Program-made: the position numbers
DNA from: Octopus vulgaris
Lineage: Eukaryota
Assembly (NCBI GenBank): GCA_951406725.2
Contig: OX597841.1
Location: 25,296,001 to 25,360,000 of the forward strand
DNA length: 64,000 bases
Reading direction: 5' to 3'
Part shown: positions 1 through 27,000 of the stretch, piece after piece
How the letters are laid out: every line of letters starts with the position of its first letter
How positions within the stretch are numbered: position 1 is the stretch's first letter

Positions 1-3000
1 CTGGTTTGAAGTAAGTACTTGAATTTTAAATCCGTGTGTCTTTGTATTTGAATTAATGAGATTAAGTAGTGCTTTTCGAATGGCTCTCTTTCTTCAGAGT
101 TGGTTAATTCCCTATAGTTAATGTTATTTCAATGAAACACTGGCAACGATGTGTGTACGCTTTGCGAGTGTGAATTAGCATGTACGTACAACAATGAGGG
201 TAGCCCGTTACTCTGGTATAATTCTCAATTTGTATGTGACTCTCCTTCACAAACTTTACGGATTGTGTGAGAGAGAAAGAGAAAAGACAGAGAGAGAGAG
301 AGGGAGAGAGAGATGGAGGGAAAGAGAGAAAACTGCATGAACGCTCAAGTATTTCTTCCTTTAATTTATATGATGCCCAAGTCATTATTACGCTTTAGTT
401 TTTTCCGTTTTCTATTTAATTAAAATAATCATTGTGTATAGAGGTTACAGTGAAGATTAGCTGCGGGAATTGAAATCTTGTTAAACATCATGGATAAAAC
501 AACTAATAGATGGCTAAGAAAATTGATTCCATTTAAAATACTACTCTAGGAACAAGGTCCGAAATTTTGGGGAATGGGGCCAGTCGATTAGATTGAGCTC
601 AGTACACAACTGGTACTTAATTTATCTACACCAAAAGAATGAACGGTAATGTCAACCTCAGCGGAATTTGAACTCAGAACGTATATATTTATATCTATAT
701 CTATCTATATATCCAAATATATATATATATATATATATATATGTACATATAATATATGTGTATATATGTATATGTATATGTATATATATATATATATATA
801 TATATATATATATATATGTAAATATATTCATATGTATATATATTTATATATATATTTCAAAATGTGACCTCGTGTGTACCGTTGGCGATTTTTGTCCCTC
901 TGTCTTCCCTTCTCTGTATCTTTCCTTCTCCAATGATTCCGACGAAGAGCTCCGCTCGAGACGTTAAACCCTCCTTCTTTCCTTCTTTCCTGAGCATCAA
1001 ACAATACTAGATGTGTTCCACGTACTCGCGTTGTTGTGTTTTTTTGTGCTTTCTTATTTGGATTAAATTTATATATATATATATATGTATTTAAATAAAT
1101 GTATATATATGTATATGTATATATGTGAATATATATATATGTGTTTATATGTATACGTATATATATATATATATATGTATATATTTATATATGTGTATAT
1201 ATATGTATATATATATAATATATGTATATGTATATAACTATATATATATATGTATATATATATATGCATATATATGTGTATATATATATTACTATATATA
1301 ACTATATATATAACTATATATTAGCGCCGTATTTATTACGTTCGCTATTTTCCAGTAAATATCGGTACTTCGTTGTGCCATATATTTACTTCTATATATA
1401 TATATATATAACTATATATATATATATAACTATATATATATATATATATATATATATATATACTATATATATATAACTATATATATATATATATAAATAT
1501 ATATATATATATATATATATATATATATATATATATATATATATATATATATAATGATAAGAGTAAATAATTTCTATAAAGGCTTTTAAAAAAACCCCAA
1601 TTATTTACTGGTAGAATTCGGTATGTAAATATAGCCGATTACCGGCAGGAACTTCTGTAAAGTTCAGTATATATATTGTATATAAGAGAAAGGGACAGGC
1701 AAAACAGGTTGCTTGACCGCATACCGAAAAAATAGAAATAGCAGTCAAGAATGCTTATTTCTATCAAAGTTGGACTCCGGGCATGACAGACCCTGTAATT
1801 CACATATGCAAAACAGAAGGAATAGATAACGAATACGAAGTCTGGCGGTTATCTGTGAACATCATGTTTCTGGATTATAAACATATTGAATATATATTCC
1901 ATATATTTTTGATATATATTTCATATATATTGCATATATATTTCACATCCTTCTTCAGCACAGCTTTCCATTGAAAAAGATTTATCATAGATTTATCAAA
2001 TGCTACGTACCTCAAACCTTCTGACCATGCGACATCAAAAAATTTGAAGAAAGTGAGCAAAGGCTAAACCTACATAGACGTTTGAATTCATAAATCTTCC
2101 CTCCAAAATTTTGCCATACGCATTACAAAAATAGTTCCATAAGATGGGGAACAATTAGGTTTTTGATTTTTCACTCCCTTTGACAACCTAATTGTTCCCC
2201 ATCTTATGGAACAATTTTTGTAATGCGCATGGCAAAATTTTGGAGGGAAGATTTATGAATTCAAACGTCTATGTAGGTTTAGCCTTTGCTCACTTTCTTC
2301 AAATTTTTTGATGTCGCATGGTCAGAAGGTTTGAGGTACGTAGCATTTGATAAATCTATGATAAATCTTTTTCAATGGAAAGCTGTGCTGAAGAAGGATG
2401 TGAAATATATATGCAATATATATGAAATATATATCAAAAATATATGGAATATATATTCAATATGTTTATAATCCAGAAACATGATGTTCACAGATAACCG
2501 CCAGACTTCGTATTCGTTATCTATTCCTTCTGTTTTGCATATGTGAATTACAGGGTCTGTCATGCCCGGAGTCCAACTTTGATAGAAATAAGCATTCTTG
2601 AGAGCTATTTCTATTTTTTCGGTATGCGGTCAAGCAACCTGTTTTGCCTGTCCCTTTCTCTTATATACAATATATATACTGAACTTTACAGAAGTTCCTG
2701 CCGGTAATCGGCTATATTTACATACCGAATTCTACCAGTAAATAATTGGGGTTTTTTTAAAAGCCTTTATAGAAATTATTTACTCTTATCATTATATTAC
2801 TATTTGGATTTTTCACTCCCTTTGACAACCTAATTGTTCCCCATCTTATGGAACTATTTTTGTAATGCGCATGGCAAAATTTTGGAGGGAAGATTTATGA
2901 ATTCAAACGTCTATATAGGTTTAGCCTTTGCTCACTTTCTTCAAATTTTTTGATGTCGCATGGTCAGAAGGTTTGAGGTACGTAGCATTTGATAAATCTA

Positions 3001-24000: not shown

Positions 24001-27000
24001 AGGCGTGTATCATTGTGCTACTTAATTAAAATATCGAAGGCATTAAGGTGTGTTTTAGCTGATATTTTTCTATTGATCGAACAATTTGTCAACTGTCTAT
24101 TGACACGATTTTCCTGATGAAGAAGACAACAATTGTTTGTTTTAGGATTTTATAAATCTTTGTTAGTGATCAATCCTTTTATCTAACTAGTTCACTGCCT
24201 CATTCAAGAAATACTTACTGCTACATGAATAACGACTTGAAACTGTTCACATTACACCAAATAAGGAATGGACACCTACCGCAAGATATTTTTCCTCTTT
24301 GTCATATTCATGGTAATATGCATTTCTTTTTATATTTCTCAATTTGAATATAATCTCAAGAACCTACAAAACATTTGGAATTGGACTTCAACAACTAAGC
24401 AGTGTTTCCTACAGAAGGAATTCCTCTCGATTGTTTCCAGGTAATCAGACTGAAAACGATCGTATCGAAGCTCAAATGAAATATGTCCTACCAGGAGAGG
24501 AAAGATGGGAAAATTATGAACGGAATAGACACCAAAATCAGTCAGATTCTGATCGAAATGTAAAGTTAAAGCCAATTAGACCAAAGTTTAAAACGTTGTT
24601 AATATACAGTTTAGAATATCTGCAACCATTGAAGGAAAATCAAACGAGTTTCCTGGAATATAAATGTCCAGTTAATGAATGTTTAGTCATAAACAACAAA
24701 GCAATGCAAAATAGTGTAGATGCTATTTTCTTTTATGAGACAGTGGGACTATCACAGAAACCAACCCACACGAACCAAATATGGATTTATATGACACAAG
24801 AGTGTCCTGTTTTCAACCCATCAGTGAAACACATGGGAAACAAAATCAACTGGACGATTACTTAACGGCCGGACAGTACGATTGTATATCCTTAAAGGAA
24901 ATTTCGATATTTTAACAAGTCAGTAAGACAAAAAGTACAATTTCAAAATTATGCAGCGGGAAAAACAAAGAAGGTTGCTTGGTTCGTATCGAACTGTCGT
25001 CCAACCAACAATCGAATGGGTTATGCTAAGGTGGATATTTACGGTAGATGTGGTACAAAAGTTTGCAAAAGAGAGAATAAAACTAGTTGCTTTGAGATGT
25101 TAAAAAAGGAATACAAATTTTATTTGGCATTCGAAAATTCCAGTTGTAGAGGTTATATTACTGACATTCTCAGTTTTATATATATATATATATATATTTA
25201 TATATATGTATGTAGATAGACAGATGTTTTATATGATATCTTTATATATGATTTATATATATAATTTGCTTGCATGAATCATTATTTCTCATTCCAATAT
25301 TGTTTATGGCAGCTGTATTTTCGTTTTTTCTTTTCTTTTGTCTATTGCAGATATAATGCTATTCCAATTGTAATGGGTGCCCATCCTGACGACTATCGTG
25401 AAGTAGCACCCGAGAATTCATACATCCACTACGAGGATTTTAAATCCCCAAAAGAATTGGCAGATTATCTGCATAAACTTGATAAAAATGATACTCTTTA
25501 TAATGAGTATTTCAAATGGAAAGGAACAGGAGAATTTATTAATACCAAATTTTGGTGTCGTGTTTGTGCGATGCTACACGCTGCCGATTATTACAAGCCG
25601 ACATGGTATGAGAACGTATGGGAATGGTGGGCAGGAAAGGGTCAGTGTATTGGAAGGCGCCGGTGGACATAAAACATAGGATATTGTGATATAATGTCCA
25701 TGATGTTGTCATTGAACGGGATAAACTATATTGAGAGAGAGAGAGAGAGGGAGCGAAAGAGAGAGCGAGAGAGAGATTGAGAGGAGGCGGGAAAGATAGG
25801 GAAGAGGTAAGAGAACTTAAAAACTGCAAATTCTCGCATACTGAAAACCATTTAAAATTCTTGGGTAATCTTTCCTTTCGAACTGTTTTTACTTCTACAA
25901 CCGTATTTAAACAAACATATTGAACAGTGTTTATTTTTCTTTTCGTGAATTCGTTTCCATCGTTACATGATTTATTTCTTTATGTGTGTCACGTTACAGA
26001 GTTGTGCTTATATAAATACTAGACTACCCGTGACCTGTTGGGTCACCGGGAAACTCAGTGATACAGCAACGGAGTTTTGTTTCGTAAGTTTTGTTCTTTT
26101 CCGAGTTATTTCGCATGCTTTCAACGAATGACATTGAAATCACATTGAATATACCATCTGGTTTATTCAACTGATGAAAGCAGAGTTTATTTGAAGCCAA
26201 GCTAGAAATCCAGGAACTTGAATTATCCAGTAATATCTTTTTGCTAGTTTATTTTGACCCTCTGTCTTATCTTGTGGTGCAATATGAACATTTTAGGTGG
26301 TTTTTAAAGTCAGGGATTTGACTACTACTTCGGTATGGTGGTGTCTCTCAGATACCCTTATTTATAGTTGTAAAAAATTATTACCGTTCTATGTTATTTA
26401 TTTCCATGCTGGCCACTTGATAATATCGATATTTAAATATTGATATTGTCCTTATTTATGAATATATATATATACTCTTTTTGAGTCCTTTTGACTGCGG
26501 CCATGCTGGAGCACCGCCTTTAGTCGAGCAAAATTACCCCGGGACTTATTCTTTGTAAGCCCAGTACTTATTCTATCGGTCTCTTTTGCCGATCCGCTAA
26601 GTGACGGGGACGTAAACACACCAGCATCGGTTGTCAAGCAATGCTAGGGGGACAAACACAGACACACAAACATATACACACACGTACATATAAAGATATA
26701 TACGACGGGCCTCTTTCAGTTTCCGTCTACCAGATCCACTCACAAGGCTTTGGTCGGCTCGAGGCTATAGTAGAAGACACTTGCCCAAGATATCACGCAG
26801 TGTGACTGAACCCGGAACCATGTGGTTGGTTAGCAAGCTACGTACCACACAGCCACTCCTGCGCCTATATATATATATATATATATATATATATATATAT
26901 ATATATATATATATATATATATATATATATATATATATATATATATACATACATACACTGGTTTTCAAAACTAGAATTATTATTATTTCTATGTCTCTCT

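What the first reader, a model, noticed from the sequence alone, without database searches (positions are those of the whole stretch)
1..25672. FucT cluster with several first exons but a single terminal exon (UGT1/protocadherin-like shared exon?)
Seen: phase-2 donors at 10|11 and 10428|10429. The only terminal exon is at 25351 with a phase-2 acceptor, so AA+A gives ...GLK-YNAIP in frame. Copies 0 and 1 have no terminal exon of their own, and the exon 1 adjacent to the terminal exon is dead and lacks a donor. Inference: a full ~421-aa enzyme needs splicing over ~14.9 kb, skipping the pseudo-exon. Upstream exon-1 variants could share one constant exon, a variable/constant architecture arising from decayed tandem duplicates.
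Basis: partly seen in the sequence, partly recalled or inferred. Interest (0 to 1): 0.8.

Follow-up and report, generated by a model that had tools for sequence, protein, structure and literature searches.

The report
Octopus fucosyltransferase gene with leftover first exons
An octopus-type fucosyltransferase gene whose large first coding exon has been copied at least six times while its last exon stayed single, leaving at most one complete gene among broken copies rather than a proven shared-exon system.

Summary
E1 copy 1 (9485-10428) is an open 314-codon exon with a phase-2 donor AA|GTAAGT. The window's first 10 bases repeat that exon end and donor. The only terminal exon (E2, 25351-25672) has a strong acceptor. 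The exon 1 beside it (24268-25165) is broken and has no donor.

The wider window changes the picture:
- There are six exon-1 copies and one E2.
- One copy is intact, four are broken, and copy 0 is unseen.
- The last ~130 nt of the intron before E2 recur at 8105-8235. They are followed by a repeat fragment, not by E2. So the duplicated unit ended within about 20 nt of the acceptor, and E2 was probably never copied.
- All copies, the intact one included, change as neutral DNA would (dN/dS about 1), and the exon is no better kept than its flanks.

Best reading: birth-and-death partial duplications of a FucTA-like GT10 gene. Only copy 1 spliced to E2 over 14.9 kb could give a 421-aa enzyme. Shared use of E2 by copy 0 is geometrically possible but untested. 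No transcript data were available.

The parts
1..10 (+). Last 10 nt of exon-1 copy 0, with donor GTAAGT at 11-16. The rest of the exon lies off the window.
   Evidence: Identical to 10419-10428. The next 700 nt are 97.6% identical to those after copy 1.
11..8235 (+). Unit B: a copy of the gene's intron, following copy 0. It is colinear with 10429-25350.
   Evidence: Chain of self-matches: 1-1555~10419-12006, 3315-3681~12192-12554, 3731-3964~13161-13396, 4183-4680~18250-18740, 4584-4967~19862-20258, 6571-6868~20282-20579, 6832-7128~22036-22338. One search adds 8073-8227~25177-25333.
8105..8235 (+). Copy of the last ~130 nt of the intron that precedes E2. No acceptor or E2 follows it. This is the duplication junction.
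   Evidence: 90.4% over 157 nt, (TA)n included. The non-repeat part matches nowhere else in the window.
8229..8275 (+). Truncated 3' end of a SINE-like repeat, abutting the junction.
   Evidence: alignment with copies near 55127-55175, 26417-26513 (-) and 32141-32191 (-).
8496..8567 (-). 72-nt inverted fragment of the 5' part of exon 1 (codons 12-35).
   Evidence: tblastn, E=1e-4; 85-87% to all five copies.
8931..9484 (+). Upstream region of copy 1, shared by copies 1, 2, 4 and 5. Copy 3 shares only about 190 nt. TATAAA sits at 9368-9373, 117 nt before the ATG, in all five copies. It may be the promoter and 5' UTR.
   Evidence: (91-96% identity among copies 1, 2, 4, 5). Promoter function was not tested.
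9485..10428 (+). Exon-1 copy 1: intact, 314 codons plus AA. It encodes the signal anchor, the GT10 N-domain and the first part of the C-domain. The donor is AA|GTAAGT.
10429..25350 (+). Inferred intron of 14,922 nt. It is swollen by microsatellites (13428-17916), an 87-bp x15 array, repeats and the copy-2 fragment.
   Evidence: Splicing is inferred, not shown.
23490..25165 (+). Copy-2 fragment: upstream region plus exon 1 (24268-25165). It is frameshifted, has 2 stops and a 21-nt deletion, and has lost its 3' end and donor. (TA)n runs at 23452-23712 and 25177-25263 bound it.
25351..25672 (+). Single terminal coding exon E2: 1 nt plus 106 codons plus TAA. It encodes the C-terminal half of the GT10 C-domain.
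31151..31855 (-). Copy 3: about 190 nt of upstream region plus exon-1 codons 1-171 only.
50139..52426 (-). Copy-4 unit, with exon 1 at 50868-51810. It has a stop at codon 55 and a 1-nt deletion just before the donor, so the phase no longer fits E2. About 715 nt of intron 5' sequence follow.
57901..59975 (+). Copy-5 unit, with exon 1 at 58609-59259. It has an internal deletion of about codons 96-195, a frameshift and a stop. The donor AT|GTAAGT is kept. It forms an inverted pair with copy 4.

Best explanation
The locus belongs to an octopus lineage-specific subfamily of FucTA-like, GT10 alpha-1,3-fucosyltransferase genes with two coding exons.

How it arose (inferred from the sequence):
- Segmental duplications copied the 5' part of the gene: its upstream region, exon 1 and intron sequence. 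One was tandem (period about 10.4 kb), one was inverted, and there are smaller fragments.
- None of these duplications took exon 2.
- For the tandem pair (copies 0 and 1), the right-hand breakpoint lies within about 20 nt of the exon-2 acceptor.

What is left:
- One possibly complete gene: exon-1 copy 1 (9485-10428) joined to E2 (25351-25672) across a 14.9-kb intron. That intron holds a dead 1.7-kb exon-1 fragment (copy 2).
- Orphan exon-1 copies around it that are decaying.

All copies, the intact one included, have changed at the neutral rate since they split. The cluster is therefore in a birth-and-death phase, and the complete gene is under weak constraint or none.

Shown: the anatomy, the copy count, the junction, the reading-frame fit and the neutral pattern. 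Inferred: the splicing, the order of events and whether any product is made.
For: Family:
- Pfam gives PF17039 (E=3.7e-17) and PF00852 (E=5.7e-30) for E1, and PF00852 (E=2.5e-24) for E2, on adjoining profile positions 3-79 and 84-182.
- Solved human FUT9 (8d0o_A) aligns to E1 at chain residues 51-222 and to E2 at 228-315.
- The best homologue is the 421-aa Octopus sinensis protein P0003, 90% identical over E1 and 94% over E2.
- The window keeps 90 of the 91 columns conserved in at least 21 of 22 animal FucTA-like proteins.

Copy count: six E1 copies plus one 72-nt piece, against one E2.

Junction:
- 25177-25333 matches 8073-8227. The match is colinear with the rest of the unit and then stops at a SINE-like fragment.
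- The first 747 nt after E2 match nothing else in the window.

Not retrocopies: copies 0, 1, 4 and 5 keep 700 nt or more of intron sequence after the donor, at 94.5-97.6% identity.

Neutral pattern:
- Private substitutions are c1 3S:15N, c2 1S:11N plus 2 stops, c3 4S:9N, c4 3S:12N plus 1 stop, and c5 3S:5N plus 2 stops. Pooled, that is 14 S to 57 N and stops, against a neutral S fraction of 0.19.
- A dN/dS of 0.2 on the copy-1 branch is rejected (P=0.0013) and 0.3 is rejected (P=0.015). A value of 0.5 is not (P=0.12).
- E1 identity between copies is 93.1-95.5%, against 94.5-97.6% for the intron flank.
- In a simulation, 36% of neutral sequences with 18 substitutions stayed free of stops.

Tree: the O. 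sinensis protein P0003 falls among the window's copies, and O. bimaculoides P0005 falls outside them (SH-aLRT 93-95).
Against: - Copy 1 is fully open over 314 codons and has perfect splice signals. E2 is open too. That fits a living gene as well as a lucky survivor.
- E2 differs from P0003 less than E1 does (6 of 106 residues against 32 of 314). This hints at some constraint, but Fisher P=0.18.
- About half of copy 1's private changes sit in one 41-nt stretch (nt 803-843). There its peptide TRKNENKC equals that of O. bimaculoides P0005. These are not independent events and may be ancestral states or gene conversion. Without them the count is 2S:7N, too few to decide.
- Copy 2 is absent from the colinear place in unit B, so the order of events is not resolved.
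- An E2 once present in unit B and later lost by a clean deletion cannot be excluded.
- Copy 0 is unseen.
Confidence: 0.55

Rival explanations
1. A true variable-first-exon locus. Copy 0, copy 1 and perhaps more copies upstream of the window each have their own promoter. Each is spliced to the single E2, giving isoenzymes that differ in the acceptor-binding part, as in UGT1A or GCNT2.
For: - Copies 0 and 1 are on the same strand and in the right order, with identical phase-2 donors and one compatible acceptor.
- Each copy carries the same 540 nt or more of upstream sequence, with a TATAAA 117 nt before the ATG.
- The AG of a possible acceptor 124 nt upstream of the ATG is present only in copies 1 and 2 of five. 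Exon 1 may therefore be a true first exon that read-through transcripts would skip.
- There is precedent. Both exon-1 copies of a partial tandem duplicate are spliced to one exon 2 in Arabis alpina PEP1 (PMC3527215, abstract and section 12 read).
Against: - Only one intact candidate exon is visible. Copy 2 is dead, copies 3 and 4 face the other way, and copy 5 lies downstream of E2.
- No sign of purifying or clearly diversifying selection was found.
- No sequence from lgn, ena or jgi sources is more than 72% identical to E2, out of the 120 listed rows each. This is weak evidence, because the octopus content of those sources is unknown.
Confidence: 0.1
2. The whole cluster is dead. Copy 1 is open only by chance, and no functional mRNA joins it to E2.
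For: - dN/dS is about 1 on the copy-1 branch, and the exon is no better kept than its flanks.
- 36% of neutral simulations with 18 substitutions stay free of stops.
- Copy 1 has K at residue 201, where 22 of 22 reference proteins have R. Dead copy 5 shares this change.
- Dead copy 4 keeps 67 of 67 conserved columns, so keeping them proves nothing.
- No AATAAA or ATTAAA occurs within 3.9 kb after the stop.
Against: - Both exons are open, both splice sites are consensus-like, and copy 1 has no indel in 944 nt, while every other copy seen in the window (copies 2-5) has one.
- R to K is a conservative change.
Confidence: 0.25
3. Assembly artefact. Each exon 1 has its own E2 in the real genome, and the repeats were collapsed or misjoined.
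For: - The region is full of (TA)n and other repeats that are hard to assemble.
- The junction at about 8228 abuts a truncated repeat.
Against: - The window has no N.
- The copies differ by 2.4-7% and carry many indels, so they are not collapsed or haplotype duplicates.
- The 750 nt after E2 are also single-copy.
- Exon-1-only gene models ending exactly at this splice site exist in another species' annotation (O. bimaculoides P0005 and P0008).
Confidence: 0.07

Closest known systems
[quoted passage not shown]
   Same: - They are glycosyltransferase genes.
- A large first coding exon with the membrane anchor and the acceptor side of the enzyme was multiplied by tandem duplication upstream of a single set of terminal exons.
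- They evolve by birth and death, with dead exons in the array.
   Different: - There, each variable exon is shown to have a promoter and to be spliced to the constant exons, and the exons are conserved across species.
- Here only one intact exon is seen, selection is not detectable and no transcripts are known.
- The split falls inside the GT10 C-domain (PF00852 position ~80 of 182), not at the boundary between the two domains.
- The paper calls that organisation vertebrate-specific for those clusters. Its supplementary files were not seen.
Arabis alpina PEP1 partial tandem duplication (PMC3527215; abstract and section 12 read)
   Same: The duplicated segment holds exon 1 and adjacent sequence but not exon 2. 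The result is two exon 1s upstream of one exon 2.
   Different: - In PEP1 both splices are shown by cDNA and the two products are identical in one accession.
- Here splicing is untested, and further dispersed and inverted copies exist.
Annotated octopus FucTA-like paralogues (P0003 and P0004 of O. sinensis, P0218 of O. vulgaris, P0005 and P0008 of O. bimaculoides)
   Same: - They share the two-exon layout and the same junction (...GL-K/I/Q-YN/HN...).
- The full model is 421 aa.
- P0005 and P0008 end exactly at the exon-1 donor, where an unspliced reading meets TAA. P0218 has only the last 65 residues of exon 1 before E2.
   Different: - None is identical to the window's exons. The best is 90% over E1 and 94% over E2.
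- Their genomic surroundings could not be read here.
Core alpha-1,3-fucosyltransferase FucTA of protostomes (mollusc N-glycan review PMC8699351, passages read)
   Same: GT10 family, with the same Pfam domains and the names given by the sources.
   Different: - The canonical octopus FucTA (P0011, 506 aa) is only 49% identical over E1 and sits on a long separate branch.
- The substrate of this subfamily is unknown.

Membership tests
GT10 alpha-1,3-fucosyltransferase (FucTA-like) | Both Pfam GT10 domains score above the curated cut-offs | tested here: met
   PF17039 63.2 bits (cut-off 28.7). PF00852 104.8 bits for E1 and 86.3 bits for E2 (cut-off 23.9).
GT10 alpha-1,3-fucosyltransferase (FucTA-like) | Family-wide conserved residues are kept | tested here: met
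   90 of 91 columns conserved in at least 21 of 22 reference proteins are kept. The exception is R201K in E1.
GT10 alpha-1,3-fucosyltransferase (FucTA-like) | N-terminal signal anchor of a Golgi type II membrane protein | tested here: inconclusive
   The translation shows MDTYRK followed by about 17 hydrophobic residues. No topology predictor was run.
GT10 alpha-1,3-fucosyltransferase (FucTA-like) | Fucosyltransferase activity | not testable with these tools
   Needs expression and an enzyme assay.
Variable-first-exon / constant-exon cluster (UGT1, GCNT2, clustered protocadherin type) | Two or more intact first exons in tandem on one strand upstream of the constant exon | tested here: inconclusive
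   copy 1 is intact, copy 2 is dead and only 10 nt of copy 0 are visible. Copies 3-5 are broken and wrongly placed or oriented.
Variable-first-exon / constant-exon cluster (UGT1, GCNT2, clustered protocadherin type) | A single set of constant exons | tested here: met
   one E2 in 64 kb on both strands. Beyond the window this is unknown.
Variable-first-exon / constant-exon cluster (UGT1, GCNT2, clustered protocadherin type) | Donor phase of each variable exon fits the constant acceptor | tested here: met
   copies 0 and 1 are phase 2 (AA|GT) and the acceptor is phase 2. Copy 4 fails because of a 1-nt deletion, and copy 2 has no donor.
Variable-first-exon / constant-exon cluster (UGT1, GCNT2, clustered protocadherin type) | Own promoter before each variable exon | not testable with these tools
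   The upstream 540 nt were duplicated with each copy and include a TATAAA. There are no data on transcription start sites.
Variable-first-exon / constant-exon cluster (UGT1, GCNT2, clustered protocadherin type) | mRNAs that join each variable exon to the constant exon | not testable with these tools
   No RNA data. No database protein is identical to either exon.
Variable-first-exon / constant-exon cluster (UGT1, GCNT2, clustered protocadherin type) | Variable exons maintained or diversified by selection | tested here: not met
   dN/dS is about 1 on all branches, and the exon is no better conserved than its flanks. Power is low (18 events on the copy-1 branch).
Partial tandem gene duplication sharing downstream exons (PEP1 type) | The duplicated segment holds exon 1 and its flanks but not exon 2 | tested here: met
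Partial tandem gene duplication sharing downstream exons (PEP1 type) | Both exon 1 copies are spliced to the same exon 2 | not testable with these tools
   No RNA data.
Processed (retro-copied) pseudogenes | Copies lack introns and upstream flanks | tested here: not met
   the copies carry 190-590 nt of upstream sequence, and four of them carry 700 nt or more of intron sequence.

The most novel reading that the evidence does not exclude
The window may catch the birth of a variable-first-exon glycosyltransferase locus in an invertebrate. A tandem duplication ended a few bases short of the exon-2 acceptor. Two or more promoter-bearing first exons (copy 0, copy 1 and perhaps more upstream of the window) would then splice by default to one terminal exon. 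The products would be fucosyltransferases with different acceptor-side halves and a common C-terminal half. PMC1885805 describes this kind of organisation as vertebrate-specific for UGT1, UGT2A and GCNT2.
Probability: 0.1. Interest if true: 0.6.

Novelty: new member of a known kind. Interest (0 to 1): 0.3.

Why it matters
As it stands, this is an ordinary but tidy example of birth-and-death evolution by partial gene duplication in a repeat-rich cephalopod genome.

It has two practical uses.
- It warns annotators. Exon-1-only models that end at the donor's in-frame TAA, and chimeric models built on stray exons, already sit in octopus protein sets (P0005, P0008, P0127, P0218).
- The duplication junction a few bases from an acceptor shows concretely how a shared-terminal-exon layout can arise in one step.

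If transcripts showed that two or more first exons use E2, it would be a young, non-vertebrate counterpart of the UGT1/GCNT2 layout in another glycosyltransferase family.

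Tried and rejected
1. Whole-gene tandem duplicates whose E2 decayed: rejected as the main model. No E2 remnant was found by tblastn, blastn with word size 7 or nhmmer. The E2 3' flank is single-copy. A clean later deletion is not excluded.

2. Retrocopies: rejected, because upstream flanks and intron sequence are kept.

3. Capture by a transposon: no support. The homology blocks are colinear over about 10 kb (tandem) and about 8 kb (inverted), and their ends fall in (TA)n runs rather than at element termini. 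This was not examined further.

4. Conserved-residue test for function: not discriminating. Dead copy 4 keeps 67 of 67 columns and intact copy 1 keeps 66 of 67.

5. dN/dS from private substitutions gave no signal of constraint.
   - The tree is unrooted and there is no nucleotide outgroup.
   - One clustered tract may be a conversion.
   - The c4 count may include one artefact at the last codon, caused by its 1-nt deletion.

6. Looking for a database protein identical to the window's exons, which would reveal a gene model or transcript joining them: none found. The best was 90% for E1 (983 proteins at E<=0.001 among 1106 candidates) and 94% for E2. A hidden near-identical member of the P0003 cluster therefore stays unchecked.

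7. Pfam scan of 27 longer ORFs in the rest of the window: only repeat-element domains were found and no other host gene.

8. A literature search for 'fucosyltransferase' plus 'octopus' returned 24 papers, of which 15 were listed. None of the titles or abstracts shown deals with this gene cluster.

   - any eukaryotic genome or read collection, so the sequence flanking the window and other species' loci could not be read;
   - the metagenome and viral contig collections, which were closed;
   - supplementary files of papers.

Full report
**What the window is.** The sequence is AT-rich (27-44% G+C per 2 kb) and full of microsatellites. It holds no N. Its only recognisable host gene belongs to glycosyltransferase family 10. 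The best protein matches are 'glycoprotein 3-alpha-L-fucosyltransferase A-like' models of Octopus sinensis, O. vulgaris and O. bimaculoides. The window is therefore from an octopus or a close relative. I did not try to identify the assembly or sample. A Pfam scan of 27 of the longer ORFs elsewhere in the window found only fragments of mobile elements: reverse transcriptase, GIY-YIG, a mariner-type transposase and one PHD finger.

**Checking the observation.**
- Exon-1 copy 1 runs from ATG 9485 to 10428, which is 314 codons plus AA. Its donor is AA|GTAAGT.
- Window 1-10 repeats the last ten bases of that exon and the donor.
- E2 begins at 25351 after a long pyrimidine tract and CAG. AA+A gives K, followed by YNAIP..., 106 codons and TAA.
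- Pfam puts E1 on PF17039 and on PF00852 profile positions 3-79, and E2 on PF00852 positions 84-182.
- Solved human FUT9 (8d0o_A) aligns to E1 at residues 51-222 and to E2 at 228-315.
- In an alignment of 22 animal FucTA-like proteins, one column separates the end of E1 from the start of E2. That column is the split codon.
- The inferred product has 314+1+106 = 421 residues, the length of P0003.
Each exon was analysed alone, and the joined step was left out.
- E2 is unique in the 64 kb on both strands by tblastn, blastn with word size 7 and nhmmer.
- The exon 1 beside it (24268-25165) has a 2-nt deletion, two stops and a 21-nt deletion, and it has lost its last ~25 nt and the donor.

Exon 1 occurs six times, not three.

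| Copy | Coordinates | Strand | State |
|---|---|---|---|
| 0 | ends at 10 | + | only 10 nt in the window |
| 1 | 9485-10428 | + | intact |
| 2 | 24268-25165 | + | broken, no donor |
| 3 | 31151-31663 | - | codons 1-171 only |
| 4 | 50868-51810 | - | stop at codon 55; 1-nt deletion just before the donor shifts the phase |
| 5 | 58609-59259 | + | about codons 96-195 deleted, frameshift and stop |

- A 72-nt inverted piece lies at 8496-8567.
- Copies 4 and 5 sit in the two arms of an inverted duplication, 44508-52426 against 57901-64000.
- Copies 0, 1, 4 and 5 keep at least 700 nt of intron sequence after the donor. Copies 1, 2, 4 and 5 keep 540 nt or more of upstream sequence. These are genomic segmental duplicates, not retrocopies.

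**The duplication junction.**
- The interval after copy 0 (11-8235) is colinear with the interval after copy 1 (10429-25350), through seven matching blocks.
- An eighth block is the important one. 25177-25333 is the last stretch of the intron before E2, and it matches 8073-8227 at 90%. Its non-repeat half matches nowhere else.
- Homology fades in the pyrimidine tract, within about 20 nt of where the acceptor AG would be.
- What follows in unit B is the truncated 3' end of a SINE-like repeat. After that come unique sequence, a (TA)n run and the upstream region of copy 1.
- Neither E2 nor the 747 nt after it occurs a second time.
- The simplest reading is that the tandem duplication ran from about 1.25 kb upstream of exon 1 to a point a few bases short of exon 2. 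Exon 2 was therefore never copied.
- On this reading, copy 1 plus E2 is the parental gene with its own intron, now swollen.
- Copy 2 is then a 1.7-kb fragment lodged in that intron between two (TA)n runs, at 23452-23712 and 25177-25263.
- Copy 2 has no counterpart at the colinear place in unit B, so the order of events is not settled. A clean later deletion of an E2 from unit B cannot be excluded.

**Is anything under selection?**
- I counted substitutions private to one copy. They were c1 3 synonymous to 15 non-synonymous, c2 1:11 plus 2 stops, c3 4:9, c4 3:12 plus 1 stop, and c5 3:5 plus 2 stops.
- With 179 synonymous and 763 non-synonymous sites, the neutral synonymous fraction is 0.19. The pooled value is 14 of 71, or 0.20.
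- For copy 1 alone, dN/dS of 0.2 and 0.3 are rejected (P=0.0013 and 0.015). A value of 0.5 is not (P=0.12).
- Exon identity between copies (93.1-95.5%) is not higher than that of the intron flank (94.5-97.6%) or the upstream flank (90.7-95.9%, leaving out copy 3, which shares only about 190 nt).
- In a simulation, 36% of neutral sequences with 18 substitutions stayed free of stops. One open copy among the five exon-1 copies that can be read here is therefore not remarkable.
- Copy 1 keeps 66 of 67 conserved columns, but dead copy 4 keeps 67 of 67.
- Copy 1's one departure is K201, where all 22 references have R. Dead copy 5 shares it.

Caveats:
- The tree is unrooted and there is no nucleotide outgroup.
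- Nine of copy 1's 18 private changes lie in nt 803-843. There its peptide TRKNENKC equals that of O. bimaculoides P0005. These changes may be ancestral states or a conversion tract.

**Relatives.**
- In a protein tree, O. sinensis P0003 falls among the window's copies. O. sinensis P0004 and copy 1 branch next, and O. bimaculoides P0005 lies outside (SH-aLRT 93-95). The expansion is therefore recent and lineage-specific.
- Existing annotations show the same kind of debris. P0005 and P0008 end exactly at the exon-1 donor, where an unspliced reading gives K or Q and then TAA.
- P0218 has only the last 65 residues of exon 1 before an E2.
- P0127 fuses ankyrin repeats to the 3' part of a FucT gene.
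- No database protein is identical to either exon. No row from lgn, ena or jgi sources is more than 72% identical to E2 among the 120 rows listed in each. That is weak evidence at most, because the octopus content of those sources is unknown.

**Mechanism and comparison.**
- A partial tandem duplication that leaves two promoter-bearing first exons upstream of one downstream exon gives a shared-exon layout by default.
- In Arabis alpina PEP1, both exon 1 copies of such a duplicate are spliced to the same exon 2 (PMC3527215, abstract and section 12).
- In vertebrate UGT1, UGT2A and GCNT2, tandemly multiplied first exons, each with a promoter, are spliced to constant exons and evolve by birth and death (PMC1885805, abstract and sections 7 and 14).
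- The present locus has the geometry and the frame compatibility for copies 0 and 1.
- It lacks the rest. Two intact exons are not shown, selection on the exons is not detectable, and promoters and transcripts are untested.
- The exon boundary also falls inside the GT10 C-domain rather than between the two domains.
- I therefore file it as a FucTA-like gene with partial duplicates, not as a member of the variable/constant class. That reading stays open at about 10%.

**Verdict.** The shared-exon idea is possible for at most two exons and is unproven. The 'decayed duplicates' origin is not supported, and the cluster as a whole looks like neutral debris around one possibly living gene. Interest is modest (0.3) and would rise to about 0.6 if junction reads from two first exons were found.

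Noticed in passing
window 44508-52426 and 57901-64000: A large inverted segmental duplication (arms 93-98% identical, in several blocks). Each arm carries one broken exon-1 copy and reverse-transcriptase fragments.
   Followed up: partly
window 18651-19954: An 87-bp tandem array of 15 units, 95% matching. The colinear place in unit B (4584-4967) has about one unit, so the array grew or shrank after the tandem duplication. Its minus-strand ORFs give a below-cut-off, probably spurious DUF4819 match.
   Followed up: no
window 13428-17916: About 4.5 kb of (CA)n, (TA)n and ATAC-type microsatellite with a sharp flip of GC skew (-0.41 then +0.39). It accounts for much of the extra length of the 14.9-kb intron compared with unit B.
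   Followed up: no
window 5541-6979 (-) and 20217-20624 (-): An ORF with a GIY-YIG domain (Pfam E=3.6e-5) lies next to an ORF with a YLDD reverse-transcriptase-like motif. From recalled knowledge, this pairing suggests a Penelope-like element. A partial colinear copy in unit C lacks the GIY-YIG part.
   Followed up: partly
window 22601-23172: A near-perfect palindrome: 573 nt are 97.7% identical to their own reverse complement. It resembles a foldback element and is present only in unit C.
   Followed up: no
window 8229-8275, 55127-55175, 26417-26513 (-), 32141-32191 (-): A SINE-like repeat whose 3' end is followed by (TA)n. Such tails may seed many of the (TA)n runs that bound the duplication blocks.
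   Followed up: partly
window 49170-50296: A tandem repeat with a period of about 226 nt lies just downstream of copy 4's intron piece. Related units lie near 59807-60038 in the other arm.
   Followed up: no
window 25673-29609: No AATAAA or ATTAAA occurs for 3.9 kb after the E2 stop, although the sequence is 61% A+T. Only TATAAA variants occur, the first at 26011.
   Followed up: partly
window 10085-10087 (copy 1 codon 201) and the same codon in copy 5: K replaces an R that is invariant in 22 of 22 reference FucTA-like proteins, in the motif NWT.TYR.DS. Copy 4 keeps R.
   Followed up: partly
window 10287-10327 (copy 1 nt 803-843): Nine clustered differences from the other copies fall in a Cys-flanked loop. 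Copy 1's peptide TRKNENKC equals O. bimaculoides P0005 and is close to O. vulgaris P0218. This is a hypervariable loop, a retained ancestral state or a conversion tract.
   Followed up: partly
proteins P0005, P0008, P0127, P0218 (public octopus annotations): Two gene models stop at the exon-1 donor's in-frame TAA. One model starts at an internal Met of exon 1. One is a chimera of ankyrin repeats with the 3' part of a FucT gene. All look like by-products of the same kind of partial duplicates.
   Followed up: partly
window 34165-35605 (-), 42977-43390 (-): A reverse-transcriptase fragment (E=7.5e-23) lies next to an ORF with a PHD finger. A mariner-type transposase fragment also occurs.
   Followed up: no
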